Source: Candidatus Omnitrophota bacterium (GTDB lineage Bacteria; Omnitrophota; Gorgyraeia; Gygaellales; Profunditerraquicolaceae). From it: a stretch of 64,000 nt of DNA. The stretch lies in contig QZKH01000003.1 in NCBI GenBank assembly GCA_003598025.1, forward strand, positions 503,221 through 567,220, in the 5' to 3' direction. Positions 27,013-48,100 of the stretch are shown here, one piece after another; the stretch's first letter is position 1; the number at the start of each line of letters is the position of its first letter. The position numbers and the translations under genes are program-made. The notes under the pieces were generated by a model. The model had not been told where the DNA came from and searched no databases. It worked only from the letters and a program-made list of their open reading frames with translations.

Positions 27013-27037
27013 GTCTTTAGTATCAGAAGGAGCTCTA

Positions 27038-28916: not shown

Positions 28917-30182
28917 TTAAAGCTTACTTAATAACACTCTCTCTGTTTTATCTATAACAGCTAAGCTCTGCATATTCTGCTCAGAGAAACGAACAGGAGT
29001 AATTGCCGGAAGGCTCCGCGCAAGCATTATGGTAGACAGATTATCCCGAGTATTAACGCCACTTGTTACGCTCAGCTCGTTCTTTGCATATTGCAGAGGC
29101 CTTTCGACATTTCTCGGCATAAGCAGATCACAGGTATATAACAGACTATCTTTGCTCGTTTCTTCTGCAGGGCTGCTGGAAATTTCTGTCAGCCGGATAT
29201 CTCTTAAATCTACTCCCCCACTAAAATAATGCCTTGTGGTAATGATCATACCAAAAGGACTGCCGAAGGCTTCGGTTTCGCTGAATGAATACTGACCTTC
29301 TTTAATGGATTTAAGGTAGCTTTGGTAAATCTCATTAGGAGTTGAGGCATAATCGGTTTCTGTATCATCGAGTACTTTATAATTCACCGTTTGAAGGAGA
29401 GAATTATAGCCTGAACCGAACTTCCCCTTATACCAATGGGCCAAGATTAAAGCGTTATACACATCTCTTAAATCGGCGTAGCCATAGGCTTCATTAATGC
29501 GCTTATTCAGCTGTGGTAAGACTAATTCTTCCATAAGCTCTGAGGTAAAATCTTGCAGTTCTTTTTCTCTATTGTTCTTAAAAGTTATTCTCTGCGATAT
29601 ATAAGCCGGTTCAAGTTGTACTCTAAGGCTGCTTTTTGTAATGTAGAGTTGGTTTTGTTTCTCATAAACCTGGGCTAAATTGGGTACAATCCAGAGCCTT
29701 GTAACCAAAGGTATCTTATCTGCGGCGCCTAGTTCTTCTGCTTTTTGATATAACCTGCGCCAAAATTCCCTGCCCACTTGAGAGGATTGCGGATTTATGA
29801 TATTGGCCACATCCTCTTTCAGCCTGTAATCGGCATTAAGCATAATCCTGCCTAAATCAGTGTCAGCCAAGCTCGCATTTATGATCCTGTCCGGCTCGTC
29901 AGGATTAAGATTAACCCAAAAAGCATCATCGTGCATGGTTAAAGCGATAAACAGATGCTCTAAGGATTTTTGTGCTGCCTTATTGATATCCACAATGCCT
30001 TCAAAATTACCGGCCCTCTTAGCTTTAATGGTCATCCGTAAATGATTAACTCCGCTTGAGGTATCAACCACCATAGAAGTAAGCTGCACTGCGCTTATTG
30101 CCTCCTGGTCTGTCTCCCCTTTAGAGACACTGGAAAACAGCGATAGGCCAGTTATTATCATCATAACAATTATCCTTTTCAC
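28917..30182 (-). CDS. Secreted hypothetical protein co-transcribed with the giant gene
   Basis: Signal peptide. Starts 2 nt after the giant ORF stop. No motif recognised. Confidence 0.5.
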   Translation of the reverse strand: MKRIIVMMIITGLSLFSSVSKGETDQEAISAVQLTSMVVDTSSGVNHLRMTIKAKRAGNFEGIVDINKAAQKSLEHLFIALTMHDDAFWVNLNPDEPDRIINASLADTDLGRIMLNADYRLKEDVANIINPQSSQVGREFWRRLYQKAEELGAADKIPLVTRLWIVPNLAQVYEKQNQLYITKSSLRVQLEPAYISQRITFKNNREKELQDFTSELMEELVLPQLNKRINEAYGYADLRDVYNALILAHWYKGKFGSGYNSLLQTVNYKVLDDTETDYASTPNEIYQSYLKSIKEGQYSFSETEAFGSPFGMIITTRHYFSGGVDLRDIRLTEISSSPAEETSKDSLLYTCDLLMPRNVERPLQYAKNELSVTSGVNTRDNLSTIMLARSLPAITPVRFSEQNMQSLAVIDKTERVLLSKL

Positions 30183-30183
30183 C

Positions 30184-33100
30184 TTACACCATGCCTTCTA
30201 ATTCTTTATTGGCTTTATCTAACTTGTCAAGGTACTGCGTATCAACCTTTGATTTTTCGATAGGCTTAAAGATAAGCTGCTTAATCTTGCCTTCATCATC
30301 CAGCTGGACTTTACCGGTTTCATCGGTCTTGGCAACAATATATTCCTTTAATTCCTTAGGCAGCTGCTCGTAGAATTTCGGCTCTTTGGCAAGACCGGCA
30401 ACAATCAGGCCTAAGCTAGAGAGGGTTTTGGTTTCTTCTCCGCGCTTGACTAAGACATCAACCTTTTTGCCCCAATACCTGATATTATCTTCAAAGATAA
30501 TCCTGATTGAGCCAGCTATTAGATACGGCTCAAGGCTCTTAATAATATAGTCCTGGGGGATATCCGGTATGGTAACTAAGCTCTTAAGCAAATCATCAGT
30601 TAAGCCTAAAATTTTGACAATCTTATCCCTATTCAAAGCTGGATCGATATTGATAAGTCTGACGCGTATGTTCTCTGGAATCTGTTTCTTTTCCTGCGCC
30701 TGATACAATGAAGCAAGCGCTTCTCTAAAGCCAAGTCCTTTTAGCTGAGGCGTGCCTTTTGAGGTATCGATAAGAGTATCGACATCAATTTCTAGCGTCA
30801 TTCCGTCATAACCAATACAAAGCATATTAATAGCCTGAATTGCGCTGTTGCTTAAGACTAAATCATTATTCTCATTAACACTAAACAAGGCTCCAGCGAA
30901 AGGATCAGCCGTCTTTATTTTTAGCTTCTCTGTATTTTCCCTGTTAAATTTATCCTCAAGGACTTTTATGGCATCGCTGACTGCCTGGTTATCCGGTTCT
31001 TTCTCAAAGAGCAGCCTTAAAAACGGCAAGGCTTCAACAGCGCCAAATTTTGCTAAAGCAATGGCTGCATTATTTCTTATTTCCCGACTCGGGCTATATA
31101 AGGAATTGATAAGCTTAGAATCTACTTCTCTTAATAACATGACCAAGTCAGCATCGTTTAGCCTGATTTGCTGTTCTTGCTCAATAGACCTTGCTTTCTT
31201 GCTTGCCCAATCAACCCTGGGAAGATTACCCAGGTTAATAGTAGTGTTGATAGTACGGAATTCTTGCTCAATGCCCGGAGGCAAAGTCACGGAAGTCTTA
31301 AATAATAATCCCATAAACAGCCGTTCCAGCTCCTGATCTGCCGGATGAGAAAGCTTATAGAACGCTGAACCGACCTCATGAACGATAATCCTGAATAAGG
31401 CTACCAAAATCTGCTTATCTCTGTTTTTTATGCCCTGGTTTATCTCTTCAACAGTAACCGGCCTTCCCAATAAATCCTCAAGACAGGACCGCTGAATATA
31501 AAAGGTATTACCGCTAAGAGTCGCACCAAAGGTTGAACGTCCGTTGTCAATAATGTATATATTTAAAGTCCTGAGGTAATCTATCAGTTCGTTAGCGTGG
31601 TTGGGAAATATGCGCGAGAAAAATACTGTGAGTGCAACAAGAAAATCAGGATCCAGCGGCATACCCTTAATTTTTCCCAATTCATAAGATTCTTTTATTT
31701 CTCGTGCCATAGGAGGCGGAAAATCTCCAAACTTAGCCGGAAGATTAGTCGTATCTCTGAACATGTTGTCAAAGAATAATTTTCTTAAGCCCTCTATAAC
31801 ACTGTCTCTTGTATCAGGAAAATCAAGGCTAAAATTATTATTAGGCGCCTGGGGCTTCTTTTCTTGAGGCTTAGGCTGAGGAATAGGTTGAGGCGACGGG
31901 GTAACCGGCTTGGGTCTTTCCAGTTCTGGCTCATAGACCGGCGGTTCTTCTATTATAGGCCTTACTTGTTTTAGTTTTGGCTTATTAAAATCTAAAATCT
32001 CTTCTATTCTTTCATCAAAACGGCTTCCCTTGCCTTTTTCGCTTTTTCCAACAATTTTGATTTCATATTCTTCAGCTAAGCGGGAAACATCCTTAGCCAA
32101 CTGCTCTGTCCACGGGATCCCTTTTCTTGCAGCGAGTTTCTTCGCTCCTAGAAGAATTGCCTCGTGGGCAAGCAGGACTGCGACTTCAAAAGTATAGAGC
32201 TGCTCGTAGGTAAGCTGGTCTATGTAGATTGAATTATTAGAAAGTCCGTTGTGAGCTATCTGATAGGCATTTTCATTGTTTACCAATAAGCCGGGAGGAG
32301 AATTATTGTGCGGTACTATCAAGACAATATTTGCTATCGAAAGTATCTCCGGAATATCAACTCTGCCTAATCTTGGAATTTGCACAGAAGGATATCTTTT
32401 TAACGACGAGATTACCCAGGCAATATCCTGTGCGTATTTTGCGCAGTTATCTTTCCAGCCGGATGCATCGCCCCAGATAAGGCTGCCCCTTCCTTCTCTT
32501 TGCGCTGCTGTAATAACCTCATTGACATCCATGTGTTCATCCGGGCTGAACATACCTTTTCCTTTAGCTGCGCCTGCAAAGTCAGACTTAATTCTATTGG
32601 CAAGCAGGTGTAAAGTTCGTTGCCAGCCATGCTCTCCGCCCTGATCGTAAAACTCTACTTCTTCAGGGATATTATGTTTTGCGCCAACGGAATAAACTTT
32701 TGCCCCGGGGATAATCATCCTGCGGTCTAATCCTGAAGGCCCGAAGTCGTCTCCCACAATAAGGATCTGTCGTGGTTGTATGTCCTGCGGAAGATAATTC
32801 CTGAACATTCCTACTGCCGCAGCTTTATCCACTCCTTTAGAAACTATATGTATAGTCCCTCCTCCAGAGACCAGTATATCTAACTGCCAGCTGCCGGGGA
32901 TTCTGCGTTTAATTCTTTCTATTAATTCTTTTTTCTGATCCGCTGAAGTGCTTTCTTTGATGCCCAGAGTCAATGAAATATCCCTGTTATGAATAAAGGT
33001 AACACCCGGATCCTGGGTTAGAATGGGGCCTAAGACTGGAATATTGCCTTTTGGATTAACCACTTCTTTTATTGCGCTTCTTATGATTTCCTGCAATTCT

Positions 33101-36100
33101 TTTCTGTGCGCCTCTGTATCAAAAGGCGCTCTTCCCATGGTAGCGTCATCCAAAAGCACTGCCTTGAACTGCCCCTGTGTATAGAACTGCCATAGCTGGC
33201 TGCCTTCTGAAGGGCCGATATACAGGCTGCTCAACAGCTCTTCTGAATCTCCTGAGTTCTTAAGCAGGCTGCGCAGCGGTTCTATTAGATATGTTTTTGT
33301 CTCTTCCGTGCTTTGCGCGGTGATAATTGCAATCTTTATTTTTGCCTTTAAGAAACCTCTAAGCTGCTCAAGGATCTCCGGCGGTACAGTGCGCAGGGTG
33401 CGTGAAAGTGTCTTATCCAAATCGAATATCATTGCCTTCGGCAAGCCGGATGTGTTTGGAGCCTTTGGAATAATATCGTCTATCCCGCAGGAATATTTAA
33501 GCATTAAACCAATCCACAAATCTACGTGGTCAATAAGATTTTTTACCTTAACCTTCTCATGGGAATGATTACCCTCGTATGGAGAACGAATATGTAAACC
33601 AGCATTTGCATGATTTGGAAAATGGACAAAGTCACCCATACCTAAACCTTCTCTTGTCAGCTCTATTTTTCTACCTTTACTAACGGCAATTTCCCGAACC
33701 GTATTTATTATGTCACTGTAGGGCTTCTTCTGGCTGTCCTGACCAGACACTACAACAACGAACGAATTATCCGGATCAGGGATTGCATAATCTAACGGAC
33801 CATCGGAAGTCAGCGAGAATAACACATTCTTAAACAACTCAGGATGACTTTCACCCAAGTGTCTCGCTCCTTCAAAAGGCGTTTCTTCTTCAGCAGTAAT
33901 AATGAAAACAATTCTTCTGCGGTCTGCGCCTTTATCCCAATAGTTTGTCTTTATGAATCTTAATGCTTCAAACAACACCGTAAGTCCCGCTTTATCATCT
34001 GCTCCGAAAGAACGATCTTGCTTATGATAAAAACCCTTTATCTGATCAGAAATATTCATATCTTCTGGAGTTGAAGAGGGGATTGTATCCATATGAGCAT
34101 TGATGATAAATCCCGGCTCTTTAGAGAACCTTCCTGTCCCGGGAAATTCTACAACCAGGTTCTTTGGTGTATCCGAGCTGCCGCACTGCGGGCCGCATTC
34201 AAGAACAACTCTTGCACCCATGGCTGTAAGGGCATCTTTTAACTGCTGCCTGATTGCCTCTTCGCTTCCTGTGGGACTTCTCTGACGGATCAGGCTGACA
34301 AAAGTATCTACGCTTTGGCTTCTGGCTTTTTCATGCAAATAGAGTGAACTTACTTCTTTAGAAATTGCCCTTGCCTTGGCTAACAAGGTGTCTGCCACCG
34401 GCTTTATTTCTTCGGCCTTTTTCAGCACTTCTATTTCTTTCTTTAGCTGCGCCTCTTCTTCTTTAAGCTCGGTTATGGTTTCCTGCAAAAGCCCTCTTTG
34501 CACATCTAAACCGCGAAGTACAAGCAAGAGCCTCTCGCGTTCTTCATTAAGCTTGGCTGCAGCAGCATTAATACCGTCTAATTCCTGACGTGCTTTATCC
34601 CTTTCAGCAACAAGACTGTCCAACTCAGCTTTTACCCCTGCTTTTTCCTGTTCAAGCCTTGAGAGCTCGGCTGCATGCTCTTGTTTCTTTCTAGCGAATT
34701 CTTCATCCAGGGCGTTGATCTGGGCTTGGATATCTTGTCTTTGAGCATCAAGCTGTTCCTGCAGCCTCTTCTGTTCTTCGCTTAGAACCTGCTGCTTTTG
34801 CTGCGCCTGAGCTTGAGTGGCTTCTTGTGTTTCTTGAACATGGCGCCTTGCTTCCTCAAGTTCTTGTTGTGTTCTATCAACATTTTCTTTTAACGCTGCC
34901 CTTTGAGCCTCTAAGCCGCGGATTTCTTCCTGAAGATTTTGTTTTTCTTTTCCAAGGCTTAATAATTCCTGCTTTTTGCTTTCTACATCCTGCTGAACTC
35001 CCTTTAAGCCTGTGGTTTCGGCCTTAAGCTTTTCTCTTTCTTCTCTTAAGCTGGTCAGCTCCTGAGTAAGATTTGTTATTTCTTCTTTTATAACTCTTGC
35101 TTTTTCCTCTGCCTCGCTTATAGATAACGACAGTTCTTTTTGTTTAGCCTTAATCTCATTTTGCAGCGCAGTTGTCTGTTGGGAGAGTTCATCTTTCTGT
35201 CGGATTAAACTTTCTATCTGCTGATCTAGCTGTGTTGTTTTAATTTGAGCTGCGCGCTCGGTTTCCTGTCTGGCCAAAGCGTCTTTTTCTGTTTCAAGGC
35301 TAGTAATAGCTTGCGTTAATTCCTGCATTTTTTGATTCAAGGCTGCTATTTCTTTCTGAAGACCATCTTTCCTAGTCTGAAAACTTGCAGCATCTTCTTC
35401 AAGCTGTTTTTTCTGTGCATTAAGAGCAGTTGTTTCTTCTTTTACTTTTCTTAAGTTTTCTTCTGCTTCCTGCAATTGCTTATTTAATGCCTCTATCTGA
35501 GCCTTAGCAGCTGAAGTATCCTGCAGAGCTGTTAACTCCTGGCGTGCTTTTTCTTTCTGCTGCTCCAAGACCTTCAGTTCTTCCTGATAAGCATCAATTT
35601 TTTGCTTTAAGCCCTGGATCGCCTGTTCATAATTAGTTCTTTCTTCTTTGAATCTGGCTGTTGCCTCTTCCTCCTGAGCTGCTGCCAAAGACAAACTCTG
35701 CCTCTTTGCTTCCAAATCTTTCTCAAGCTGGATAATTTCCTGTGTTAGTTTTTCTTTCTGCTGAGTTAATTCTTGAATCTGCTGTCCAGCTTGCGCGGAC
35801 TTCTGGCTTCTTTCTTCTTCAAGCGCAGCAATTGTCTTTTCAAGACCTGCTATTTCTTCTTTAAGACTGGATACCTTTGTCTGTAATTGCGGAATAACTG
35901 CTGCATCCTGCGGCTCAACTGCTACTACATCGTCCGGTTTTTCTCCTGCACCCTCAAGTGCCTCAATAGGAAATGGAGTCTTTGGCAAAGGATAGTCTTG
36001 TTTGTTATATTCAATTTGTCCTTGCAGGACCTCGGGTTTCACTGCGTAAAGCTCAAATCCTTCAGGAGTAGTTTTTGTGCTAAGAAGATTAATGACTTTT

Positions 36101-39100
36101 AAATCCAAAATTGTGATGACTTCCTTAATCTTAGAGAGCCTGTATTTGGTTTGGGTGACATTATGGAACTTCTGGAAACGGGCCCATTCATAACGCTGGA
36201 TAAAATCTATTGAGCGGGGAGTGTAGTTTATCGGTTCGCCCGGAAGATTAAAAGTATGGAGCAATTGATACCAGTCATTATCCCTTAAGAGCCAGGATAT
36301 CCTCAAGCCATAGATATCATAAAGATGGCTTACTACAGAGAGCTTTTCTTCGCTAGTTAGTTCCTGCCATTCAGGATGTTTTATAATCTGCGTTAATTCT
36401 TTTTTGGCAAAACCTCTTTTTGAAGATGCGAGATTTGTCACTGTTAACGGTAATCCTAAGCCTTCCAGAAAAGCCTTCTGATTCCGCAAGGTATCAGGAT
36501 TGCGTAACAATAAACTTCTGCCATGTCCATTTACGATATCAAGCCCCAGTTCATCATGCAGGAAACGGATTCTATCTTTTACATTGATTTTTTCAGAGCG
36601 AAGCAGACGCTGCATTTCTTTGGAAGGAAGCGCTTTTAAGAATTCAACTGACTTATCTATATCTGCATCGCTAATCTTTACTGTCTGAGTCTCGGGCCTT
36701 GGTGTGGTGGTAATAGTTTCGGCTTGGGAAGATAGAGTGGCGGATTCTTGTTCTTTCTGTGAAACTTGCGACTTTAATTCTACAATCCTTGCGTCCAGCT
36801 CTTCTATGATGTTATTTTTGACCTCTTTTGCCTGAACAAGCTCATCTTGAACTCTTTGGTGTTCTTCTCTTAAACGCCCTAATTCATCGGTTATCTTCTT
36901 TAACTCGTCTTCCTGTTTCTTGCTACCTGCTTCTAAATCAGCGGCCTGCGTTTTCTTCTGTTCAATTTCAGCAGCTAAATCTTCTTTTTCTTTTCGTTGA
37001 GAAGAAAGCTGCCTTTCTAAGTCATCTGCCTGCTGCTGCAATCCTTTAACCCTGTCAGAAAGATTCTTAAATCTTGACCATCTTCTCCATAAGATGATCC
37101 CGCCTGCTAATATTCCTATGCCGGTTAAGCCAAGCAGGATTATTCCTAATTTCCCCTGCCAGGGAAGACTAATCCAGATATTCTTTAATGTAGGTTCGGA
37201 TTTTATTTTAGCCTCATCTAAAACTGTCTTTGCCTCGCTTATCTGTTGCCTTAAGCCTGATAAATTCTGCTGTAGTTTATCCTTATCCTGCGTTAACTGG
37301 TTAACGTTATTCTCAAGGACGCTCTTTTGAGACTGCAACTGCGTTAAATTTTGCTCCCCTTGTTTTTTCTGTGTCTCAAGCTGCCTGACTTCACCTTGAA
37401 GATTATCAATTTTCTGCTGGATGCGCGGGGGCTGGCTTTGTAAATGCTTTACTTCTTGGGCGGCTTTTTCTTTTTCAGCAAGAATTCTGTTTAATTCTTC
37501 CTGCGCTTGTTGCTGCTGCGCTTCAAGGGTAGCAATTTGACGTTCATAGTCAGCTTTCTTCTCTTGAAGCTGAGTAACTTCTTCAGGAAGTTTTTGTGTT
37601 TCCTTTAACTGCTGCAGTTGTTTTTGGGCACCGGCAAGCTGGGCTTTCAGATCAGATACTTCTATTTTAAGATTTGAATCTGTCTGGCGTATTTTATCCA
37701 GTTCAGCCTGTATAGATTTTATTTGCTCGCTGATCTGAGTTATAATCTGCTGTGTATCTGGAGCATTATCTTGAGCTTGGTCTACCTGCGCCGGTTTAGG
37801 TTTAGCCTCTTCTCTAGCCGGTGCTTTTTCTTGCGAAACAGCATCTTTGCCGGTTTCTTCCACAGAAACCTTTCCGCTTAAATCTAACGGTTTTTGTCCT
37901 TCAGGTACATCACTTAAACCAACCTTGGGATTAACCTGTGCAGTAGCAGGGCCAAGCCTGACCTTAGCTTCCGTTGCAAGCTCAACTCCTTCAGTATCAC
38001 TTTTATTCTGTTTAACTTTTTCTCCCAAAGATGCCTTGGCAGATAAACTTATTGGGGCTTCTTCCTGAGGAACATCACTTAAGCCCACCTTCGGACTTAT
38101 ATCTCCAGTTAGAGGGCCTACACGCATGTTGCCTTGACTCCTGAGCTCAACTCCTTTGGGTGCCTTTTTAACTTCTGGTGTCTTGGCTGTTTCCTGTTTC
38201 TTTGCCTTCTCGCCTAATTCGATATTCCCGGAAACGCTTAACGACGCTTCATGTGGTTTAGGCTGGCTAAGAGCAACCTCTGTTCTACTGTGTATAGTCA
38301 GAGGTCCTATCCTTGAATTAAATGCAGTGGCGCAGCCACTGGAAAGCAGCAATGCAGCAGCCAATAGAAAGCCGGTGCAGAAGTTCCGGAAAGAATGCCC
38401 TTGCTTAGGAGTATTTTTCTTAACCGGCTGTGAATTTGCTTGAACTGGACTGCTTACAGGATTATTTTCCTGCGCGGGGGCTGGCTTCTCTAAAACCGTA
38501 CCCTCTCCTGAATCAACGGGCTGTATTTCTTGTGTTTCTTTTGGTGTATTTCTTTGCCAGATATTCCTTAATAATAAGGTTTGTCTTGGATTATTTGGAT
38601 CAACTCTTTTTAAAGAATAGTTCCAATGCGGGCTAAAAGTCTCCAGGTATTCATTGCGCGCTGCATAATTATCCCACAGGCCTAAAGCCTTTAAATGTTC
38701 AAAGCCGGTTGTCTTTTCTATTTCCTGTGCTGTAGCAGGATATTTCTGGTCAAAATGGTCGTGTATGGCATTGAAATTGGAAATAAAACTGCTCATTAAA
38801 ACTTGGCTGAATCCTTGTGAGCTGGCATATTCAACTACCTTCTCTAATACTTTATCCGAAATCTCCTTTACTGAAACCGGCCAAGATCTTCCCCAAACAG
38901 GAAGCTGTATTGCATCAACAATTAGAACAGGTTCGCTATCTTTCTCGCCAACAATTGTATAAACATTACCTACCCATTTGTCATCCTGGATAACCCTAAA
39001 GACCAATAATCCGGGGTCAAACATAAACTGTGGGATAGTATTGTAGAAAGCCGAGCCGTTTATGGAAGTACAGTCTCCACTTGCCACACCTCTTAAAATA

Positions 39101-42100
39101 TCATCAGCCGTTCTCTCAGAAAGCCTCAGTTCAAACTGGATGTCTTTTGCCTCGCGGATAACCTGCTGCTTGTTTGCCTGGAACGAAGTGCAGCGGTTAA
39201 ACTGCCAGCGGATATCTTCAATCTCTTTTTGCAAAACCCTGTTCAAGGCATCTTTTAAGCTTGCATTCTCTTCAAGGGAAATAGTCTCCCCGCCGATATC
39301 TATGCGGAAAAATTCCTCAAGGACACTTAAGGCGCCAAGGTAGTTTTTCTCAGATAAGAGATCATTGACCTCGTCGAGTTTGGCTTTGCTTTGCAAAGAA
39401 ACATAAGATAAAAGCAGTTGATAATATGTGTATAGATCAGTCGGCGTTGCGCCTTTATACAGTTCTTTCCTTAACAGGCGCGACCTTTCCTGATGTATTC
39501 TTTCTAATAACTCATCAGCAGTGCCTATTTGTGTCCTTCTAATCCTATTTAAATACTGCCCGATAAACTCCTCGGCGCGCCTGTCTTCTTCATAACGAAT
39601 CTTCTCTTTAGGAACACTAAAAAAGTAGCTCTTGTTTTGAGGCTGATCAAAGTCATCCGTCAAGCTCAATTCTTTCGCTCTTTGCTTAAAGTTATGATAG
39701 AAGCTCTTATCCTTAAAGAAATCTATGATGGAACCATGTTTAATAAGACTAGAGTAAAGCAGGCCTAATGCTTTAACAGCCTGATTTCTTGAAATGCCTA
39801 CTTCAAAAGGAATTCTGATATCGATATTCTTTGGAACAAGCTCACTGGATTCTGCAGATATCTTGGACAAGACTTGAGCAAGTTGTGTCCTTAAATCCTC
39901 CGGTAATTTATATTCTTGAAGAACGGGTCTTGGTAAATATTCGGTTTCATAGTATGAATCGCGGTCCGGTTTATGCGGGAAGAGTTTGTAAAAAATGTAA
40001 CAAACTAATCCGATAAATCCAGCAACACCTGCTACAAATACTAAAGGCGTAAGCGGATTATAGAGCCAATCACCAGAAGAAAAATCCTGCGCCTGGGCTT
40101 TATTTGCAAAGAGAAGGCTTGAGAATATTCCTAAAGGAATAAAGGATGCTAATCTTACGCCCAAAGCAGGACTAGATCCCCTGCCGGTACCAAGACCTAA
40201 TTCAACGCCTATATGCCCAAGCTCGTCCTTCTTCTCCCTAATCTTCATTCTTAATTCGCCCAACTCATATTCTATCTTTTGGGCTTCTGCGGTTTTCTGA
40301 TCAGAAGCTTCTTTTAAAGCTAAAGCTACAGCATTTTTGCCTGAGTTGGCTGCTTCCTGGCCTCTTCTATTTAACTGAGTTAACTCTTCTCGCCTCTCTT
40401 TGGAAAGGCTGGCAAGGCGGGTTTCCTCGCTGGACATCTCGCCTAAGAGTTTTTCCAAATAATCCAAATCTTTCTGTCTCTGCTGAATTACTTGAGGAGT
40501 AGTTTTATCTAACTCAATCCTATAGCCAGAGACATCCTGGAAATCATTAGAGATAGAATTTCCATTTATTGTCTGGACAAATTCTTCGCTTACTCCTGCC
40601 TCGGAAAAGAATTCTGTCCCCCCTAATTTCTTAAGCTTAAATACCGCCGTTTCATTTTGGCCACTTTTTTCTCTCGCAGCTTTACGTAAGGCATCTTTTA
40701 TTCCCCGCTGAGCCGGATCAGAGCTTATCAGCAAATAATCAAATCCCTGCGAACCCAGATAGTTCATAAATTCACGAACAAATCTTGCTGCAAATTCTTT
40801 TCTTATCTCTTCTTTCCCTTCTCCATTTGTCACTAAAAGGTGGCTTTCGTTAAGTTGAAACATATCTAAGAAGAGATAGAATTTACCGTTTTTGTCTTTA
40901 AACGCGAAAGTATAAATATTACCTACCCATCTATTCTCTTCAATCACTTTAAAAAGAAAACAAGCGGGATCCATAACAAAAGCTTGGGTGTCCAAGAAAT
41001 GCGGATAGTCACCATCGGTATTTTTTGTGCAATCTTGGCTCACAAATCCTTTGAAGAAATCAGCTAAGGTCCCTCCGGATAAATGGAACTGCAATATCTG
41101 TTTTCCTTTCTCATCGAGTTTATTGTTTATCGTAGACTTCTTTTGTTCAATAAATTTTGATACAGAAGAATAAAACTTGGACTTTTCCTGTAACCATTTA
41201 TTCTTTAAAATCAGTTCGCGAACACGTTGCCAATATTGCACAACTGTCCTTAGCTTGTTAAAGTCATCGGTTGCACTGTTTATCTGCGCCCTTAACTCGG
41301 CTGTCTCAGAAAAAGCAAGGATTTCCATTATTTTTAAAGTAAATACTGCCCGCTGCTGTTCGGAAAACTGCTGCCAATTTTGCACTTTGCCTAACAGTTG
41401 TTGAGCCATCTTTGAAACTGTATCTGAAGTGACAAACTCCTCTAGAGGTCTACCCTTAATTAATTCCCTTTTTGGCTCAATAAAGTTATCATAGAGATTA
41501 GGCCATTCCATGCGTAGATATTGAATGAGCTGCCTTAACGCCTGAACGGTATCGCTTATAGGCATTACCTGCGCTTCTTCTTCCCTAGACCACTTTACTA
41601 TCTCACCTATACAGGATACCCTGAATTTCTCTCCTGGCTGATTGAACCCCGGCTTTAATCCCGTTGCCTCATCAAGAAAACGCCTATAATACGCAGGCTT
41701 TTGGCTTTCCGCGTAGCTGTAAACACCATCCCTCCCCATCTTCTCCATAGCTTTTCTTACAGGAGAAAATTCTTGGATAAAGCTTCTAATTGTATCCTCC
41801 CCGCCTACGGCCCTGATCAGCTCATCAAAACTTACAGCGTCTCTTAAACCTGCGAGGTTAGATGGCGCGCCTAATTTAACAATTTTCTGGCCAACAATAT
41901 ACTGGTAGGCTTTCTCAACGCGCTTATCTGTATCTATTGATGAATCAGTTAAAATATCCAAAAGGTCTGGTGTAATCAAAACCAGCTGACGATAAGCTTT
42001 GTAATATTGATTCAGAACCGCGGGAAGATGATTAAAGTCCCTATCCTTTCCTTTGCTCTTGTAATAATCAAATGTTGTAGCAATATCACGGCAGAAAACC

Positions 42101-45100
42101 TCTAATACCTCAGGCTTAAGTTCAGAAAGACTCCCAATCCAGAAAACAAATTCTCTTGGATTAATAGCGACATTAGCAATCTTATCTATAGTATTATTAA
42201 GCAAACTAATAGTGGCTGGCTTTGTAAAATTAGCAGTTTTATCTAAATTATCCCAAACAGCAGTTAATCTTTGCTGTTCTTCTGGATTGGTAGTAAATCT
42301 TGCAGATAGTTCACGCCTCTTTACTATGTAGTTCTTGAGTTCTTGGTATCCGGACAAAACCTGTTTTGTTCCTGCAGCCCACGTCTGTGCCTCAAAATTA
42401 ACGCACATAGTAAGCCACCATACAAAGTCATTCTTCCTGTAAGGCTGATTGGCAAGTGTGTCAATGTCCTTTAGAATTTCCAAGATTACATCTTTTATTA
42501 AGCCGGCGCAGCTCGGTCTTTTTTCTTCTAACTTTGCCTTTAAGGAATCAATAATCCTGCCAAGATCATCTTTCTCCTGCTGGTTAGTACAGAGTTTATC
42601 AAGAGCCATTTCTTTGGCTTGCTTAAAACCAGCTAAGTCATTGAAATTATTGATTACCGCTTGAGCTCCTCCACCCCAAACACTAGCATTAAGTCCTATT
42701 AATTCGGTTAACCAATAGATAAATTCTTCTTTTGACCTGCACGTTTTGGTTAATTCCGACAGAATATTCTTAAGTAAATCTGAACTATTGCTATCTTCAA
42801 GCATACCTGGAAGATGGCGAATACTTTTTTGTGAAAGTTGGTTTTTCAGATTATCGATATCTGAGAGGAATTTCTGGCGGCTTGAATCATCCTGGGTAAA
42901 CTTAGCTGCAGCATTTTCTTTTGCTTGCTTAAAGCCAGCTTGAACAATGATTACATTTAGCGCCCCTGCCGGCCCATAGCCATTAACGCCTTTCCAGAAA
43001 TTATCATCGAATGCCTTAAGGAAATTTATATATTCAAAGAATTCTGTTAGGTTACGAGAAACTTCAGTAACCTTAGGAATAATAGTCATAAGTATATAAA
43101 CATCTGCAGTAACACCTCTTCTTTTTAATTCTTGCCGCAAGCTGTCAACTGTCTGGAACAGTTGGGATGTTTCTTGGGAATTATGGCAAAACTTTCCTGA
43201 AGCTTCCTCTTTAGCACGCACATAAGCAATTAGATTCTGTAATAGCCTAAGAAATTCTCCTGAAGACCATGACTGTTTTTCAAACTGCATAACTTCATTT
43301 ATCCAGAATAAAAATTCATCTAAATTGCGTGAGGCTTTGTTAATTTCGGCTAATGCTTTTTTGAGGATGCCGGGATAATTTAATCCGTCTCTTTCCAGTT
43401 TCTGTATAAGGCCGTTTATAGCAGCTCTGGCTCTTGCAGCTGCTTCTTGGTTAGTACCGAACTTATTTAATGATTCCTCTTGAGCACAGTCAAATTCTCT
43501 TAGATCGGTAAAGACTGCTAAAACCTGCCTTTGCCCTTGGTCTAAGATATTCTTAGGCAAACTTACAACTAAAGTTAGCCAATGCCAAAACTCATCCCTA
43601 TTTCTGGATTGCTCAGTGATTTGCGGAAGGATATCTTTAATTAAACCTACAGCATTGTTTGCGCCTTTCTGGGTAAGTTTTTCTTTTTCTCTATCAATAC
43701 CGTCAAAAATAACCTTTTGCTCCTGGGCAGTGGTGGCAAATTTTGTTGCAGCAACGCGCGATACCCTTTTATATTCTCCGATATCTCCGTAAATCCGTGT
43801 CTTCTCGGACTTCCAGTTACCGAATTTGAATAGCCGGGCAATCTTTTCTTCTTGTCCTGCTTCCATCCAAGAGCGAAAGATCTTCTCCAGGTATTCCTTG
43901 GACATGCGCGCGTATACGGGGGCCACGCTGCTTATGTCTCTATCTGAGAGCTCATCCGAAAGCAAGAGATTAACTTTTTGCAGTTTTCGGTAAGTAAGAG
44001 GGAATGTTAAGAAACGGTAGACAGTTTTTACCACACTGGTAACCTTTTCGCTTACCCAAACACCTGCGACACTTAAACCAGCACCCAGAAGTGGAGCAAC
44101 TACTATTTCCCCAATCCAAACTACATATCCTAAGGTTGCTGGCTTGTCAGACGTACCTAGCTCCCAATGATGACCGTAGGGAACGTAATATAGGAATATA
44201 CCTCCTAAGATCCAAGCAACCACGGCGCCTAACCAGGCAACCGCAGTCAAATTGTCGTCATAAGAAAGCTGCCCTATCCAGCCACGTTCTTTCTCAATCT
44301 TTAAGGATTCGCTTAATGTCTTAGCATATTCTAGGTCCTGCGGTCTTTGAGATTTAGAGATGTTTCCTGTTTGCTGCAGAATTGCATTTAATTCTTCCGT
44401 AACTGAAGAGTCTGGCTTTATTTCCTGGGCACGCTGGAATGCCCTTACCGCTTCTAACAACTGTCCCTTCTTATGCAAGGATCTGCCTAAGTTAGCCAAA
44501 ACTATCTGGTCATTTGCATCAAGCTCGAGTGAACGCTTATAGCTTTCAATGGCTTTTACATCATCGCCCTTTTCAACATAAACCACACCTAAATTATTAT
44601 AGGTGGTGCTGTTATTTGGCGTTATTTCCAGGGATTTTCTGTAAGATGTTATAGCGTCATCAAAGCGCCTCTTCTTTCTTTGGCATTCAGCTAAAAGATT
44701 GTAATCAACCGCGTTCTTGGAGTTTAGTTTTATGGCCTGATTAATTAAACTTATAGCCTCATCAATATTGCCTTTCTTAAACTCTGAATTTGCTCTCCAA
44801 TACAACCTTTCATGGGAAATCCCTTTGCCAACTTTGCCGCCAAGAATTCCGCTGACAATTGAAACCGGCCAGGCGATAAGCAGGGTTGCCAGGATCGGCC
44901 AGTCTGCCTCTTTAGGATTGGTAAAGACCTCCTGAATCTTTGGGGTCAAATTAACAAAGTAGGCATAATAGCCTGCAACTAATGAACCAACGGCCGCGGT
45001 CATACCCAAGGTTTTACCGGCCGTTGTGTTAAACCATTTGTTGAGAATTTTCTTGGTAATATAAAGAGGGGGACCGAATAATACCGTAAATACTGCAACC

Positions 45101-48100
45101 ACTCCTATGGAAAGCGGATCCAAGGCGTATAAGGTTGTTCCACCGGTCTCACCTAATTCCCTGCGCAATGAGTTAATCTGTTCTTCGTATCTTGCTTTCT
45201 CCTGCTCAAGACGGCCAAGCTTTTCTTTAACTTTCCTAAGTTTTGAAGTTAAACCGTCTACTGCCGGCTGCAAGGCTTCGATAACAATCCTATCGTTCTG
45301 TCTTTTTGCCTCTTCCAGGCCCTCACTTAATTCCCTAAGATCGGTTTGAACCTTAGCAATTGTTCCTTCCTGTTCTCTGAATTTAACCAAGAATTGGTTA
45401 TAATCATCAGTCAAGGCCTTAAGCCTTGCCCTCTTGCTTTCTGCTTCTCCCATATTAGGAGCGGGCAGCGCTCTTGCTTGCGGTGCCGGAGGCAGTTCAG
45501 AGATGCTTTCTTCTTCTGTAACGACAACCTGACCCTCTATGACATCTTCCGGCAAGTTCCTGGCTAATTCTGCCTGGATTTCTCTTCTTACATCGCCTTC
45601 GGTTACTTCTATATCTTGAGAGGCTTTTTTTGCCAGATATAAAAGCACGCGCCTGGCTATTTCAGGATTTAGGTATAATGATTTGTTTAGGGCAACTTTG
45701 GAATATCCGGTCATCATCTCAGGGAATGCCGGTATCTGCGACATACGGCGTTCTATAGTATTTATCCATTCCTGTACTAAAGGATCATTCTCAATTTGAG
45801 GATTATTGGTAAGAATCCACTTTAAATAACGAGGCAATCGCCCATATCTTTCGTTTATCTCTTCGCTAACATAAAGAGTCTGTTCTTCCGTACTTGGAGC
45901 ATGAAAGCGGATCATGTGCTGAATTTGATTTTCAATAATACGCTGGAATTCTCTTTCCAGTTCTGCTATATAGCCATCCGTTAAGAGCCGGTAAAGCGCC
46001 TCATCAGAAAGTCCTTCGTATTGATCCAGCGCTTGCTCGGTAACCCTATCTCGGGCATTGTCAATAGCCCGTTCAAAATCACGCAAAACTTTTTCATCCG
46101 TGCCATCCATCATCCGCTGCATATTTTCTAATATATGGATTACCTTATCTCTATCTGAGGTATCCTGATTAAGCATGGATAGGGGCATGGGTAAAGGCAG
46201 TTCACCAGGACCCACAGGCCTAAAGCTCCTGGCTAAAGCGTCCTTTGAGCCTTGAGCAATGGAACCGCTTAACTGCTGGATGCGGTTTTCTAACTCTTGG
46301 CGCATGGTAACGGGCAAATTATGATTCGGCTGTATACCTTGAGGGTTGCTGATTATGCTTGCCACCGGCCTTGCAACTTGAGGCCTGCTGAAAGTTGTTA
46401 CTATGGTAGGCTCAATTACAACCGGAGCCACTTCCTGAACAGGAGTCTTTCCCTTCGAAGAAATCTTCTTAATGATGCGATAGGCAAAATATCCAATTGT
46501 GCCTGCTATCGCTAAGAAAATAGTCACGCCATGGGTAAATACATCGCTAAATGAGGCGAATATCTTAGAAGACGCAGAATTATCTTGGCCTAAAGCTGTT
46601 GTAGAAAAATACAAACTTAGCGTAAAAACACTTATCGCTGTTAAGAAAGGCCGTAAATTTATCTTAATCTTGGGTATCGCAAAGCGAGGGATACTAGCTT
46701 TAATTTCAGGCTTTGCTTTTATTGCAGCGGGCTTTTCTTGCGCCGCAGGCGCAGAAAAAGTTACTGTTGGCTCCTGTTTGCCTCCTGCTATTCTCTGTTC
46801 TATGAACTTTGCTTCCTTGGCTTTTGGTTTTAAAGATGCAGCAAAGCTTGCGAATTTCTCTAACAGCGTTCCGGAATTTCCGGCTGCCTTTGGCTTAATC
46901 TCTGCTCCAGTGAGCACCGCGTTAAAAGCTTCTGCAATATCGATTCCCTGGGCTAAGAATCTTAAAAACTTCCAGGAATTTTCTTTATTATTTGTTTTTA
47001 CAGACAGCCCATAGGCTACGCAGCCTATAACTTTGCCGTATTTGTAATTCTCAAGACCTGACTTGTATTCAGCCATCAAGTCAGCTATCCCCGGCGTATC
47101 CTGCGGCCTTGCGCCTGATTTTAAAGCTGCTGCCAGTTCTTCCGCTTTATCCGCGGTGTCCTTTGCGTTGGCAGCAAGGAATTGTTCAGGATTAGTTTGC
47201 AGTTCAAGTAGCCTTAGGAAACCAACTGCGCTAGCAAGATAAGCGCCTTCACCGTCATTTATATATCTGCCGTAGCTTCTAAGGTAATGAGTGGTTTCGT
47301 GTGCGATTATTTCTTTAAGATAATCATCTGAAAGATGTTCTCTTAAGGCGACAACTATCTTTTTATATTCCGGTTCAACGGAACCGCCGTGCTGATAATC
47401 CAATGTTTGAGAGTGATATAAAGATTTGCTTGAGAAATGGTTTAGAAGCTTGCCGCCCACAGCGTAAAACAATAACGGGCCAAAGGTGCCAAGCTGGATA
47501 AATACTTTCGCTACAGATGGATCGAATGCTCCGGTAAAGAAATACCATACCACCATTTCTAATAAGCAGGCAAATCCGAAGAACGCAGGGATACCTGACA
47601 AGGCAAGCAGCATATTTCTATTTGCTGTTTTGACCCAGCCGCGTATCTCTTCCTGTGTGTATTTTCTGAAAGGAATGGTATTACTGACTATCTCATCAAC
47701 CTTATGCTGCGAGATCTCCGGGACCATCCTTCTAGAAACATAGGAAACCTCTTCTTTAATCATATTCCTTTGAGCGGCACTAAACTCAAAAGATACTATT
47801 TTGTTCTCGCTTCCTTTATCAAACGAAGAGGCAGCTAAAGGCGAATAAAGATAGAGCGCTACAGCAACTATCCCTGTGGAAATATTCTTGATATTTACTA
47901 CGCTCTTTATCTTCCCTGTCATAGATAATATAAGCTGAGCAAATCTCTCAACCAAACCAGGGCCTTGCTGGATAGTCGGGGCTTGTTTTATAGGATTCTC
48001 CTGCTTTGGTATAGTGGCAGGTACTGTTTCTTCTAGCTGGACAGGTTTATTAATAGGCGAGATTTCCTCTAAGGCGAGGCTTACTGCTTTCTGATCTTCC

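What the first reader, a model, noticed from the sequence alone, without database searches (positions are those of the whole stretch)
32735..34160. Embedded M20/M28/M42-type zinc-peptidase-like and HAD-phosphatase-like domains near the C-terminal third of the giant protein
The motifs HMD (34080-34150), DDKAG (about 33975-34025) and TAEEET (about 33880-33910) occur in the order and spacing of co-catalytic zinc aminopeptidases/deacylases. Immediately after come a textbook HAD motif I (MIFDLDKTL, about 33391-33420) and a motif IV-like VGDD (about 32735-32780). Catalytic modules on an otherwise structural, coiled-coil-rich giant protein suggest an enzymatic warhead, such as cell-wall or lipid modification.
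Basis: partly seen in the sequence, partly recalled or inferred. Interest (0 to 1): 0.6.

Follow-up and report, generated by a model that had tools for sequence, protein, structure and literature searches.

The report
Two enzyme domains in giant protein
A 6,541-residue membrane-anchored protein of an uncultured Omnitrophota bacterium really does carry an intact zinc-peptidase-type domain followed by an intact HAD-type phosphoryl-transfer domain, but enzyme domains of this sort are already known in this phylum's giant proteins, and here they most likely face the cell's own cytoplasm rather than acting as an outward weapon.

Summary
All five motifs lie within about 15 nt of the stated positions, inside one 6,541-aa ORF (30184-49809, minus strand).

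- **Peptidase domain (aa ~5160-5445):** it passes the Pfam thresholds for Peptidase_M28 and M20. It keeps all five metal ligands and the general-base Glu. The model is confident (pLDDT 86) and matches PepT, CPG2, DapE and the Aeromonas aminopeptidase. It lacks the M20 lid domain.
- **HAD domain (aa ~5458-5745):** this is a HAD-IIB domain with motifs I-IV intact. The family profile's best solved relative is the PMM-type alpha-phosphoglucomutase 4bnd.
- **Relatives:** the source is a Candidatus Omnitrophota MAG. Other Omnitrophota giants share its conserved N- and C-terminal modules and shuffle these enzymes. One has the same M28-HAD tandem plus two more HADs. One has three HADs and no peptidase. 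One has the peptidase and no HAD.
- **Location:** in 9 of 9 cases the enzyme modules follow a membrane helix with a K/R-rich C-flank, which suggests the cytoplasmic side.

The domain calls are right. The "warhead" reading is not supported. Two preprints already report HAD and peptidase modules in Omnitrophota long proteins, so this is a new member of a known kind. Substrates are unknown.

The parts
30184..49809 (-). Giant ORF, 6,541 aa, that carries both domains.
   Evidence: It is a single open frame. The same 6,541-aa gene is called in NCBI assembly GCA_020060685.1. The source organism is a Candidatus Omnitrophota MAG.
33475..34332 (-). Clan-MH dinuclear metallopeptidase domain, aa ~5160-5445. 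It has M28-like single-domain architecture and its N-terminal half is PepT-like.
   Evidence: - Pfam M28 scores 46.3 bits and M20 39.1 bits.
- The TIGR01883 PepT-like model scores E 3e-17.
- PDB sequence hits are 3rza and 3gb0.
- The AF2 model has pLDDT 85.8 and pTM 0.88.
- Foldseek matches PepT, CPG2, the DapE catalytic domain and AAP.
34087..34095 (-). H5239-M-D5241: the first metal-ligand His and the HxD Asp.
   Evidence: Both residues are invariant in alignment A1 (H90, D92). They align to SHMDT of PepT 3gb0/3rza.
33994..33999 (-). D5271 is the bridging metal ligand; D5272 is a second-shell Asp.
   Evidence: Both are invariant in A1 (D122, D123). They align to GADDKAG of PepT. Assigning the first D as the bridging ligand rests on the D-x-K pattern of DapE and AAP, which is established knowledge.
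33883..33888 (-). E5308 is the general base; E5309 is a metal ligand.
Evidence: A1 columns E159 (invariant) and E160 (at least 90% conserved). They align to the EE of 'TVGEES' in 3gb0.
33802..33804 (-). D5336 (in TSDG), the fourth metal ligand.
   Evidence: It is invariant in A1 (D187). It aligns to LDSDG of 3gb0.
33565..33567 (-). H5415 (in GNHSHE), the fifth metal ligand. E5418 follows it.
   Evidence: H266 and E269 are invariant in A1. They align to 'YEEIHTTNE' of 3gb0. H5415 lies only 79 residues after D5336, so there is no room for a lid domain.
33439..33474 (-). Short linker between the two domains, aa 5446-5457.
   Evidence: pLDDT falls below 50 from model residue 302 (aa 5451). The segment is not conserved in the alignments.
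32575..33438 (-). HAD-IIB domain, aa ~5458-5745, with a C2-type cap. It is PMM/alpha-phosphoglucomutase-like.
   Evidence: - Pfam Hydrolase_3 scores 30.9 bits.
- TIGR01484 HAD-SF-IIB scores 35.7 bits, below its 41.8 cut-off.
- The exhaustive HMMER search found 87 relatives.
- The profile of A2 hits L. lactis alpha-PGM 4bnd at E 9.6e-12 over its full length, then PMMs.
33409..33423 (-). HAD motif I, D5463-L-D5465-K-T5467: the nucleophile Asp and the Asp+2 acid/base.
   Evidence: D14 and D16 are invariant and T18 is at least 90% conserved in A2.
33319..33321 (-). HAD motif II, T5497 (in IITAQS).
   Evidence: S or T occupies this column in all copies. The adjacent Q5499 is invariant in this clade and is also present in 4bnd as 'ISGQ'.
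32824..32826 (-). HAD motif III, K5662 (in KGVDKA).
   Evidence: It is invariant in A2 (K213). It aligns to the K of 'GQNKEFG' in 4bnd.
32725..32751 (-). HAD motif IV, G-D5687-D-FGPSGL-D5695: the Mg-binding acidic residues.
   Evidence: D5695 is invariant. D5687 is Asp here but Asn, Tyr or Ala in some paralogous copies of relatives. The motif aligns to 'GDMTQPGGND' of 4bnd.
34360..37089 (-). Coiled-coil stalk of about 900 residues (aa 4241-5150) between the membrane anchor and the peptidase domain.
   Evidence: Only coiled-coil Pfam families hit this stretch, such as CENP-F_leu_zip, KASH_CCD and crescentin rod. The composition is Q/E/K/L-rich.
37090..37146 (-). Last predicted transmembrane helix before the enzymes (aa 4222-4240), with a K/R-rich C-flank.
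   Evidence: Kyte-Doolittle hydrophobicity is 2.35. The upstream 15 residues hold 2 K/R and the downstream 15 hold 6.
30187..30921 (-). Conserved C-terminal module (aa 6297-6541) that marks this giant-protein family.
   Evidence: It is 51-70% identical to the C-termini of P0011, P0012 and the L002 ORF. Only 8 clusters in 5.8 billion proteins match it, and one of them is named Candidatus Omnitrophica.
47890..49809 (-). Conserved N-terminal module (aa 1-640) of the same family. It follows a signal-peptide-like first helix.
   Evidence: It is 49-57% identical to the N-termini of P0011 and P0012, and 23% identical to that of P0027.

Best explanation
**What it is.** These are two real, catalytically competent enzyme domains embedded in tandem in a giant, multi-pass membrane-anchored protein of an Omnitrophota bacterium.

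**Domain 1 (aa ~5160-5445)** is a lid-less clan-MH dinuclear metallo-exopeptidase or deacylase.
- H5239, D5271 (bridging), E5309, D5336 and H5415 hold two Zn(II)-type ions.
- E5308 activates the bridging water, which attacks a terminal peptide or N-acyl bond.

**Domain 2 (aa ~5458-5745)** is a Mg-dependent HAD-IIB phosphotransferase of the PMM/alpha-phosphoglucomutase type.
- D5463 forms the aspartyl-phosphate intermediate.
- D5465 is the acid/base.
- T5497 and K5662 hold the phosphate.
- D5687 and D5695 hold Mg.
- It acts as a sugar-phosphate phosphatase or mutase.

**How the modules are arranged.** Both domains are interchangeable cassettes in a small Omnitrophota family of giants with fixed N- and C-terminal modules. 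They sit at the end of a roughly 900-residue coiled-coil stalk that starts at a membrane helix. They most likely lie on the cytoplasmic face, so the protein works as a membrane-tethered scaffold of metabolic or processing enzymes.

**Shown versus inferred.**
- Shown: domain identity, intact and conserved catalytic residues, and modular distribution.
- Inferred: catalytic activity, cytoplasmic location and scaffold role.
- Unknown: substrates, and whether the HAD domain is a mutase or a phosphatase.
For: **Domain identity**
- Pfam and NCBIfam hits pass or approach their thresholds.
- PDB sequence and profile hits are PepT-like tripeptidases (E 1.3e-17) and alpha-PGM 4bnd (E 9.6e-12).
- The AF2 model of the peptidase has pLDDT 85.8. 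Its Foldseek hits are all clan-MH enzymes.

**Catalytic integrity under selection**
- Every ligand is invariant across ten sequences at 37-45% identity.
- The ligands are also kept in the L002 giant at 54% identity and in the P0012 giant copy at about 26% identity.
- HAD residues D5463, D5465, K5662 and D5695 are invariant in 16 copies averaging about 30% identity.

**Modularity**
- P0012 has M28+HAD in tandem plus 2 more HADs.
- P0011 has 3 HADs and no peptidase.
- P0014 has a coiled coil running directly into a HAD.
- L002 has the peptidase but no HAD.

**Real gene.** The same termini and domain order appear in independent MAGs.

**Cytoplasmic side**
- In 9 of 9 cases the strong TM helix preceding an enzyme module has the K/R-rich flank on the enzyme side.
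- PMM-type HADs use cytoplasmic sugar phosphates (established knowledge).
- Nielsen & Lui 2026 (10.64898/2026.06.07.730766) read HAD-containing Omnitrophota long proteins as inner-membrane-anchored with cytoplasmic domains.
Against: - The nine free-standing homologues of the peptidase domain, and the matching Verrucomicrobiota loci, all start with signal-peptide-like N-termini. That family is therefore normally exported.
- My topology rests on a hand-made hydrophobicity scan plus the positive-inside rule. Counting all 15 candidate helices from an N-in start gives the opposite side for the C-terminal part.
- West-Roberts et al. 2023 warn that TM predictions on such giants are unreliable.
- The HAD domain itself does not hit Pfam PMM, and it falls below the NCBIfam HAD-IIB cut-off.
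- Its single-sequence structure model was unusable (pLDDT 49.7).
- No activity or substrate evidence exists.
Confidence: 0.6

Rival explanations
1. **Extracytoplasmic effector.** The C-terminal 2,300 residues are outside the cell. The coiled coil projects the peptidase and phosphatase towards the envelope of the bacterium or of a host or prey cell. There they trim peptide stems or dephosphorylate surface polymers.
For: - Free-standing homologues of the peptidase carry signal peptides.
- Omnitrophota giant proteins have been linked to predation and are mostly predicted to be extracellular (West-Roberts 2023).
- A naive count of 15 helices from an N-in start puts the C-terminal part outside.
- The adjacent conserved 421-aa ORF has a signal peptide.
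Against: - The K/R bias at the helix preceding every enzyme module (9 of 9) points to the cytoplasm.
- The closest characterised HAD relatives are cytoplasmic sugar-phosphate enzymes.
- Co-resident modules in relatives are nucleotide or cytoplasmic types: SLOG/LOG-like, HEAT, CofD and uridine-kinase-like.
- No peptidoglycan-, lipid- or carbohydrate-binding domain was detected anywhere in the protein.
Confidence: 0.25
2. **Pseudoenzymes.** The two folds are retained only as binding or structural modules of a scaffold and no longer catalyse anything.
For: - Some paralogous HAD copies in relatives have Asn, Tyr or Ala in place of the first motif-IV Asp.
- The M20 lid, which contributes substrate-binding residues in M20 enzymes, is missing.
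Against: - In the window's copies every catalytic residue of both domains is present.
- These residues are the most conserved columns across relatives that are only 26-45% identical.
- Lid-less M28 enzymes are fully active (established knowledge; 1amp is among the structural hits).
Confidence: 0.1
3. **Artefact.** Separate peptidase and HAD genes were fused into the giant frame by mis-assembly or sequencing error in a metagenome bin.
For: - The source is a MAG.
- Free-standing homologues of the peptidase exist.
Against: - The frame is uninterrupted for 19.6 kb.
- The peptidase sits in the same place in an independent Omnitrophota MAG (L002).
- The M28-HAD tandem recurs in P0012.
- Fragments 75% and 66% identical (P0010, P0013) run from the HAD domain to the same C-terminus.
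Confidence: 0.03

Closest known systems
PepT-like tripeptidases, MEROPS M20B (PDB 3rza, 3gb0; TIGR01883)
   Same: - These are the best sequence and profile matches: E 1.3e-17 by family profile and E 7.5e-14 by Foldseek.
- The motifs are the same: SHMDT, GADDKAG, EE, DSDG and H..E.
- The metal-ligand order is the same.
   Different: - The match covers only the N-terminal catalytic half.
- The roughly 100-residue lid/dimerisation domain between ligands 4 and 5 is absent: the gap is 79 residues, against about 172 in 3gb0.
- The domain is embedded in a 6,541-aa protein rather than in a roughly 400-aa soluble enzyme.
M28 aminopeptidases (Aeromonas/Vibrio proteolyticus AAP 1amp; S. griseus SGAP 1qq9)
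   Same: - Both have single-domain architecture.
- The spacing of ligand 4 to ligand 5 is almost the same: about 77 residues in AAP (from memory) and 79 here.
- M28 is the top Pfam family.
- TM-scores are about 0.6.
   Different: - Structural-alignment identity is only about 15%.
- The AAP-type enzymes are small secreted proteins.
Free-standing 'FrvX'-annotated peptidases of Verrucomicrobiota (P0001-P0009; loci L003-L011)
   Same: - They are 37-45% identical over the whole domain.
- They have the same lid-less architecture.
- All ligands are shared.
   Different: - They are 340-400-aa proteins with signal-peptide-like N-termini.
- They have no HAD partner.
- They have no conserved gene neighbourhood.
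HAD-IIB phosphohexomutases: L. lactis alpha-phosphoglucomutase (4bnd) and eukaryotic-type phosphomannomutases (PMM1/2)
   Same: - The profile match runs the full length (E 9.6e-12).
- The motifs match: DxDxT, (S/T)xQ, the K of motif III, and GDxxxxGGxD of motif IV.
- The nearest free-standing relatives (P0028, P0038) pass Pfam PMM.
   Different: - The window's domain does not itself hit Pfam PMM.
- The cap is larger, with about 160 residues between motifs II and III.
- 'GGND' has become 'SGLD'.
- Mutase versus phosphatase chemistry cannot be decided from sequence.
Omnitrophota giant/long proteins (West-Roberts et al. 2023, 10.1101/2023.11.21.568195; Nielsen & Lui 2026, 10.64898/2026.06.07.730766)
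   Same: - The phylum is the same.
- They have many TM helices.
- Enzyme modules are embedded among repeats, including HAD hydrolases, peptidases, Lysine_decarbox/LOG-like, TPR and HEAT.
   Different: - This protein is much shorter: 6.5 kaa, against the 10-kaa or 30-kaa minimum of those surveys.
- It has none of the Archaeovorin markers (SecA DEAD, C39 peptidase, dockerin/TSP3).
- Neither paper mentions M28, M20 or Hydrolase_3.

Membership tests
Clan MH co-catalytic metallopeptidases (M20/M28/M42) | Five metal ligands in the order His, Asp (bridging), Glu, Asp/Glu, His. | tested here: met
   H5239, D5271, E5309, D5336 and H5415 are present. All are invariant or at least 90% conserved in A1. 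They align to the PepT ligand motifs.
Clan MH co-catalytic metallopeptidases (M20/M28/M42) | A general-base Glu immediately before the ligand Glu (the EE pair). | tested here: met
   E5308-E5309 aligns to the EE of 3gb0. E159 is invariant and E160 is at least 90% conserved.
Clan MH co-catalytic metallopeptidases (M20/M28/M42) | The alpha/beta catalytic-domain fold. | tested here: met
   The AF2 model has pLDDT 85.8 and pTM 0.88. Foldseek probability is 1.00 to PepT, CPG2, DapE catalytic domain (TMt 0.77), AAP and TET.
Peptidase family M28 (Pfam PF04389) | A score above the curated gathering threshold, and single-domain architecture. | tested here: met
   The score is 46.3 bits against a cut-off of 21.3. 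Ligands 4 and 5 are 79 residues apart and nothing is inserted between them.
Peptidase family M20 (Pfam PF01546) | A lid/dimerisation domain inserted between the fourth and fifth ligands. | tested here: not met
   The Pfam score passes (39.1 bits against 24.6). However, only 79 residues separate D5336 and H5415, against about 172 in PepT 3gb0, so the lid is absent.
Peptidase family M42 (Pfam PF05343) | A score above the curated gathering threshold. | tested here: not met
   The score is 20.4 bits against a cut-off of 23.2. The family profile hits TET1 only at E 3.9e-7.
Clan MH co-catalytic metallopeptidases (M20/M28/M42) | Metal-dependent exopeptidase or deacylase activity. | not testable with these tools
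   This requires expressing aa ~5150-5450 and running enzyme assays.
HAD superfamily | Motif I DxDx(T/V), with the nucleophile Asp and the Asp+2. | tested here: met
   The motif is FD5463-L-D5465-K-T5467. Both Asp residues are invariant in 16 copies.
HAD superfamily | Motif II (S/T), motif III (K) and motif IV (acidic pair). | tested here: met
   T5497, K5662 (invariant), D5687 and D5695 (invariant) are present. They align to the corresponding motifs of 4bnd.
HAD subfamily IIB (Cof/PMM/T6PP type, C2 cap) | A cap inserted between motifs II and III, and scores above the curated thresholds. | tested here: inconclusive
   About 160 residues lie between T5497 and K5662. Pfam Hydrolase_3 scores 30.9 bits against 20.9 and passes. 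TIGR01484 scores 35.7 bits, below its 41.8 cut-off. The structure model was too poor to confirm the cap fold (pLDDT 49.7).
PMM / alpha-phosphoglucomutase group of HAD-IIB (Pfam PF03332) | A match to the PMM profile, and mutase chemistry. | tested here: inconclusive
   The window's domain has no PF03332 hit. The clade profile's best PDB hit is alpha-PGM 4bnd, followed by PMMs. The nearest free-standing relatives pass PF03332. The chemistry cannot be tested here.
Omnitrophota giant membrane proteins | Omnitrophota origin, a multi-kaa ORF, many TM helices, and enzyme modules embedded among repeats. | tested here: met
   Neighbouring genes are identical to proteins of a Candidatus Omnitrophota MAG. 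The ORF is 6,541 aa with about 15 hydrophobic helices. It carries TPR, coiled-coil, M28 and HAD modules.
'Archaeovorin'/dockerin-type giants (West-Roberts 2023) | SecA DEAD helicase, C39 peptidase and dockerin/TSP3 domains. | tested here: not met
   None of these families was detected in any of the seven overlapping segments at E <= 0.1.

The most novel reading that the evidence does not exclude
The M28-like peptidase and the PMM-type HAD domain could form a coupled two-step catalytic unit. The evidence is that they are joined by a roughly 12-residue linker here and sit in the same order in the distantly related giant P0012. Such a unit would process one bifunctional substrate, for example an aminoacylated or peptidyl sugar-phosphate or a lipid-linked intermediate, at a fixed distance from the membrane.

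On this reading, the family with the conserved N- and C-terminal modules would be a previously unrecognised class of membrane-spanning enzyme 'assembly line'. It would link an exported N-terminal module to cytoplasmic chemistry.
Probability: 0.1. Interest if true: 0.65.

Novelty: new member of a known kind. Interest (0 to 1): 0.35.

Why it matters
Omnitrophota giant proteins are among the largest and least understood gene products in bacteria. Most of their length has no annotation.

This case gives a compact (6.5 kaa), tractable family member with four useful properties:
- two excisable domains whose catalytic residues are all intact;
- a defined set of relatives that shuffle these cassettes between fixed N- and C-terminal modules;
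- a testable topological prediction;
- clear assay targets: expressing aa 5150-5750 would show what chemistry such giants carry and on which side of the membrane.

The result is incremental. It sharpens an existing picture of embedded enzyme modules and does not reveal a new kind of system.

Tried and rejected
- **Word-indexed homologue search with the HAD domain alone.** No hits at E <= 1e-3. The exhaustive HMMER search was needed instead.
- **Single-sequence AlphaFold of the HAD domain.** pLDDT was 49.7, so the model was unusable and I ran no fold search on it.
- **Gene neighbourhoods of the free-standing peptidase homologues in Verrucomicrobiota (L003, L005, L007).** They are unrelated to each other (ComEC, PdxJ, xanthine dehydrogenase/XdhC, DUFs), so they give no functional clue.
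- **Identity of the conserved N-terminal module.**
  - The PDB profile search gave only noise.
  - Pfam gave only a single sub-threshold TraB/PrgY/GumN hit at E 0.012.
  - My recollection that 'HIQDAH...VAGGFH' resembles Tiki/ChaN/TraB stays an untested lead.
- **PADLOC defence models** on the N-module, C-module, partner ORF, both enzyme domains and the aa 5746-6296 filler. No hits.
- **Similarity between the HE-containing segments.** I compared aa 5760-5990 with 5991-6300 and with the HETTH region around aa 837, looking for degenerate zincin modules. BLAST found nothing, so I dropped the idea.
- **Literature search for the assembly accession.** Nothing found.
- **Autoprocessing-protease idea.** I rejected this on principle: clan-MH enzymes are exopeptidases or deacylases, not endopeptidases.

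Full report
**1. The observation.**
The interval lies inside one uninterrupted ORF on the minus strand, window 30184-49809, 6,541 aa.

| Motif | aa | nt |
|---|---|---|
| AHMD | 5238-5241 | 34087-34098 |
| ADDKAG | 5270-5275 | 33985-34002 |
| TAEEET | 5305-5310 | 33880-33897 |
| MIFDLDKTL | 5460-5468 | 33406-33432 |
| VGDD | 5685-5688 | 32746-32757 |

They are not chance motifs.
- The segment aa 5150-5460 passes the Pfam gathering thresholds of Peptidase_M28 (46.3 bits, E 5.5e-12) and Peptidase_M20 (39.1 bits).
- The segment aa 5440-5760 passes that of Hydrolase_3, the Cof/HAD-IIB model (30.9 bits).
- NCBIfam gives PepT-like (E 3e-17) and HAD-SF-IIB (35.7 bits, just under its cut-off).
- Elsewhere in the protein Pfam detects only TPR, coiled-coil families and a weak HEAT hit.

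**2. The peptidase domain.**
phmmer against PDB sequences finds two PepT-like M20B tripeptidases, 3rza and 3gb0. The alignment matches SHMDT, GADDKAG, the EE pair, DSDG and the distal H..E.

A database search found nine free-standing proteins of 340-400 aa that are 37-45% identical over the whole domain. In the ten-sequence alignment the invariant columns include H5239, D5241, D5271, D5272, E5308, D5336, H5406, H5415 and E5418. E5309 is at least 90% conserved.

From knowledge of AAP, DapE and PepT, the roles map as follows:
- metal ligands: H5239, D5271 (bridging), E5309, D5336 and H5415;
- general base: E5308.

The catalytic pair is therefore the second and third Glu of TAEEET.

AlphaFold2 with this alignment gives a confident model (pLDDT 85.8, pTM 0.88). 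Its Foldseek matches are all clan-MH enzymes: PepT, carboxypeptidase G2, the isolated DapE catalytic domain (TM 0.77 on the target), TET aminopeptidases and the Aeromonas/Vibrio aminopeptidase.

Only 79 residues separate ligands 4 and 5, against about 172 in 3gb0. The M20 lid/dimerisation domain is therefore absent and the architecture is M28-like. A family-profile search ranks PepT-like enzymes first (E 1.3e-17, N-terminal half only), then M42 TET1, then M28 AAP. The domain is thus an intermediate, lid-less member of clan MH.

**3. The HAD domain.**
The word-indexed search found nothing. An exhaustive HMMER search of 1.84 billion representatives found 87 relatives.

Alignment of 16 copies shows invariant D5463, D5465 (motif I), Q5499, K5662 (motif III) and D5695 (motif IV). 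T5497 (motif II) is always S or T. D5687 is Asp here but Asn, Tyr or Ala in some paralogous copies elsewhere.

The profile of this clade matches Lactococcus lactis alpha-phosphoglucomutase 4bnd over its full length (E 9.6e-12). Phosphomannomutases and trehalose-6-phosphate phosphatase follow. The nearest free-standing relatives pass Pfam PMM. The window's domain itself does not hit PMM, and a single-sequence structure model was too poor to use.

I therefore file it as HAD-IIB, PMM/alpha-PGM-like. Whether it is a mutase or a phosphatase is undecided.

**4. Context: a family of Omnitrophota giants with swappable enzyme cassettes.**
Neighbouring genes are identical to proteins of a 'Candidatus Omnitrophota bacterium' MAG (contig JAGUZT010000008).

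The best HAD hits are themselves giants.
- **P0011** (4,423 aa) and **P0012** (4,408 aa) share the window protein's first roughly 600 residues (49-57% identity) and last roughly 240 residues (51-70% identity). Each carries three HAD copies and a SLOG/LOG-like domain.
- **P0012** also has an M28 domain directly followed by a HAD, the same tandem as here, with the ligands kept at about 26% identity.
- **P0014** goes from coiled coil straight into the HAD.
- **P0015** has two HADs plus HEAT repeats and SLOG.
- **L002**, an independent Omnitrophota MAG, holds an orthologous giant. Its peptidase domain is 54% identical with all ligands, but it has no HAD domain ('FIVSEDSSL' replaces 'MIFDLDKTL').

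The C-terminal module occurs in only eight clusters of a 5.8-billion-protein collection, and one is named Candidatus Omnitrophica.

The two enzymes are therefore separable cassettes inserted between a coiled-coil stalk and a fixed C-terminal module. Recurrence in independent assemblies rules out an assembly artefact.

**5. Which side of the membrane?**
A Kyte-Doolittle scan finds about 15 uncharged hydrophobic helices, the last at aa 4222-4240. No credible helix lies in the remaining 2,300 residues, so both enzymes and the C-terminal module share one compartment.

That last helix has 2 K/R upstream and 6 downstream. In P0011, P0012, P0014 and P0015, every strong helix preceding a HAD, M28 or SLOG module shows the same bias (9 of 9). 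The recurring unit has four parts in order:
- a signal-peptide-like segment;
- a loop of 20-400 residues;
- a strong helix with a basic C-flank;
- a coiled coil leading to the enzymes.

By the positive-inside rule the enzymes are cytoplasmic. The N-terminal module and the loop at aa 3829-4221 are outside.

This fits three other points:
- the PMM-type HAD chemistry;
- the nucleotide- and sugar-type companions in relatives (SLOG, CofD, uridine-kinase-like);
- the reading of TM-only Omnitrophota long proteins by Nielsen & Lui 2026.

Three points count against it:
- the free-standing peptidase homologues look exported;
- a naive helix count from an N-in start gives the opposite answer;
- published work warns that such predictions are fragile.

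I put the cytoplasmic reading at about 0.6-0.65.

**6. Mechanism (inferred).**
In the peptidase, two Zn-type ions held by the five ligands polarise a terminal amide, and E5308 activates the bridging water. The result is an exopeptidase or N-acyl-amino-acid deacylase.

In the HAD domain, D5463 attacks a phosphomonoester to form an aspartyl-phosphate. D5465 acts as acid/base and Mg is held by D5687 and D5695. The phosphate is then passed to water (phosphatase) or back to the sugar (mutase).

Substrates are unknown. Nothing found here ties either domain to peptidoglycan or lipid.

**7. Comparison with what is known, and novelty.**
Two preprints already describe Omnitrophota giant or long proteins studded with enzyme modules, explicitly including HAD hydrolases, peptidases, Lysine_decarbox/LOG-like, TPR and HEAT (10.1101/2023.11.21.568195; 10.64898/2026.06.07.730766).

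Neither mentions M28, M20 or Hydrolase_3 modules. This protein is below their length cut-offs and lacks the Archaeovorin markers (SecA DEAD, C39, dockerin).

It is therefore a new member of a known kind. New details are the lid-less M28-like cassette, the PMM-type HAD cassette in up to three copies, and the fixed terminal modules that define a small family.

**8. Verdict.**
- Observation: confirmed.
- Domain interpretation: supported.
- 'Warhead' interpretation: not supported, though not excluded (about 0.25).
- Interest: 0.35.

**Dead ends.**
- Neighbourhoods of the free-standing homologues gave no functional clue.
- The identity of the N-terminal module stays unresolved.
- PADLOC gave no hits.
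- There is no detectable similarity among the HE-containing segments.
- The accession search in the literature found nothing.

Noticed in passing
window 26857-26950 (+): A c-di-GMP-I riboswitch aptamer (71 bits; gathering score 35) lies just upstream of a 200-aa ORF at 27011-27613 (+). It is about 3 kb from the giant gene.
   Followed up: no
window 12548-12597 (-): An nhaA-I RNA (53 bits; gathering score 37) lies directly upstream of the 136-aa ORF at 12128-12538 (-).
   Followed up: no
window 16392-26393: A mobile-element or defence-like stretch sits next to the giant gene. It holds an OLD-family nuclease (16392-18362), a LexA/S24 plus N6_N4 methyltransferase fusion (20618-22150), a TaqI-like restriction enzyme (22147-22848), a large serine recombinase (23717-25594) and a phage RepO-like protein (25977-26393).
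   Followed up: partly
window 47890-49809 (-), giant aa 1-640: This is a conserved N-terminal module behind a signal-peptide-like helix. It is shared with P0011 and P0012 (49-57% identity) and with the 2,000-aa P0027. It has invariant HIQDxH and VAGGFH motifs. It is unannotated apart from one sub-threshold TraB/PrgY/GumN hit (E 0.012).
   Followed up: partly
window 30187-30921 (-), giant aa 6297-6541: This highly conserved C-terminal module (51-81% identity among relatives) has no family assignment. It is found in only 8 protein clusters, one of them named Candidatus Omnitrophica.
   Followed up: partly
window 28917-30182 (-): A 421-aa ORF with an N-terminal signal peptide starts 1 nt after the giant's stop codon. 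It has no Pfam or PADLOC hit. A 47%-identical ORF sits in the same position after the L002 giant, so it is probably a conserved exported partner.
   Followed up: partly
window 42280-43830 (-), giant aa 1994-2510; also 40720-41091 and 38788-39132 (-): The giant has internal repeats. Helical units of about 95-120 aa ('R.L.EF..W' type) repeat at least 4-5 times. A domain of about 120 aa is duplicated (aa 2907-3030 versus 3560-3674, 30% identity, E 8e-16), with a conserved 'DCT...W.GN.YT' motif and unknown function.
   Followed up: partly
window 47287-47301 (-), giant aa 837-841; L002 ORF around 'EMEHEFLH': An HExxH motif (HETTH) lies in an unannotated cytoplasmic-side segment. The L002 orthologue has HEFLH in the filler that replaces the HAD domain. 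These could be zincin-like modules, but no profile or BLAST support was found.
   Followed up: partly
P0011, P0012, P0015 (relatives): Related giants carry two or three paralogous HAD copies. One copy type (P0011c, P0012c, P0015b, P0018) has Asn in place of the first motif-IV Asp, so it may have altered or lost activity. All three relatives also carry a SLOG cluster-4/LOG-like domain that the window protein lacks.
   Followed up: partly
P0027 (2,000 aa): This protein combines the same N-terminal module with CofD, a PMM-type HAD and a phosphoribulokinase/uridine-kinase domain. The N-module is therefore attached to sugar- and nucleotide-phosphate enzymes in other architectures too.
   Followed up: no
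window 50012-60139 (-): A dense signalling cluster lies upstream of the giant gene. It has at least three response-regulator receiver proteins, a 7TM-GAF histidine kinase (56518-58779) and a PilZ-methyltransferase protein (58784-60139).
   Followed up: no
window 38326-38382 (-), giant aa 3810-3828: An internal lipoprotein-signal-like segment (…LLAAALLLSSGC…) precedes a loop of about 390 residues (aa 3829-4221). The loop is predicted to be periplasmic and contains short 'VGPLT..ISPKVGLSDVP' repeats.
   Followed up: no
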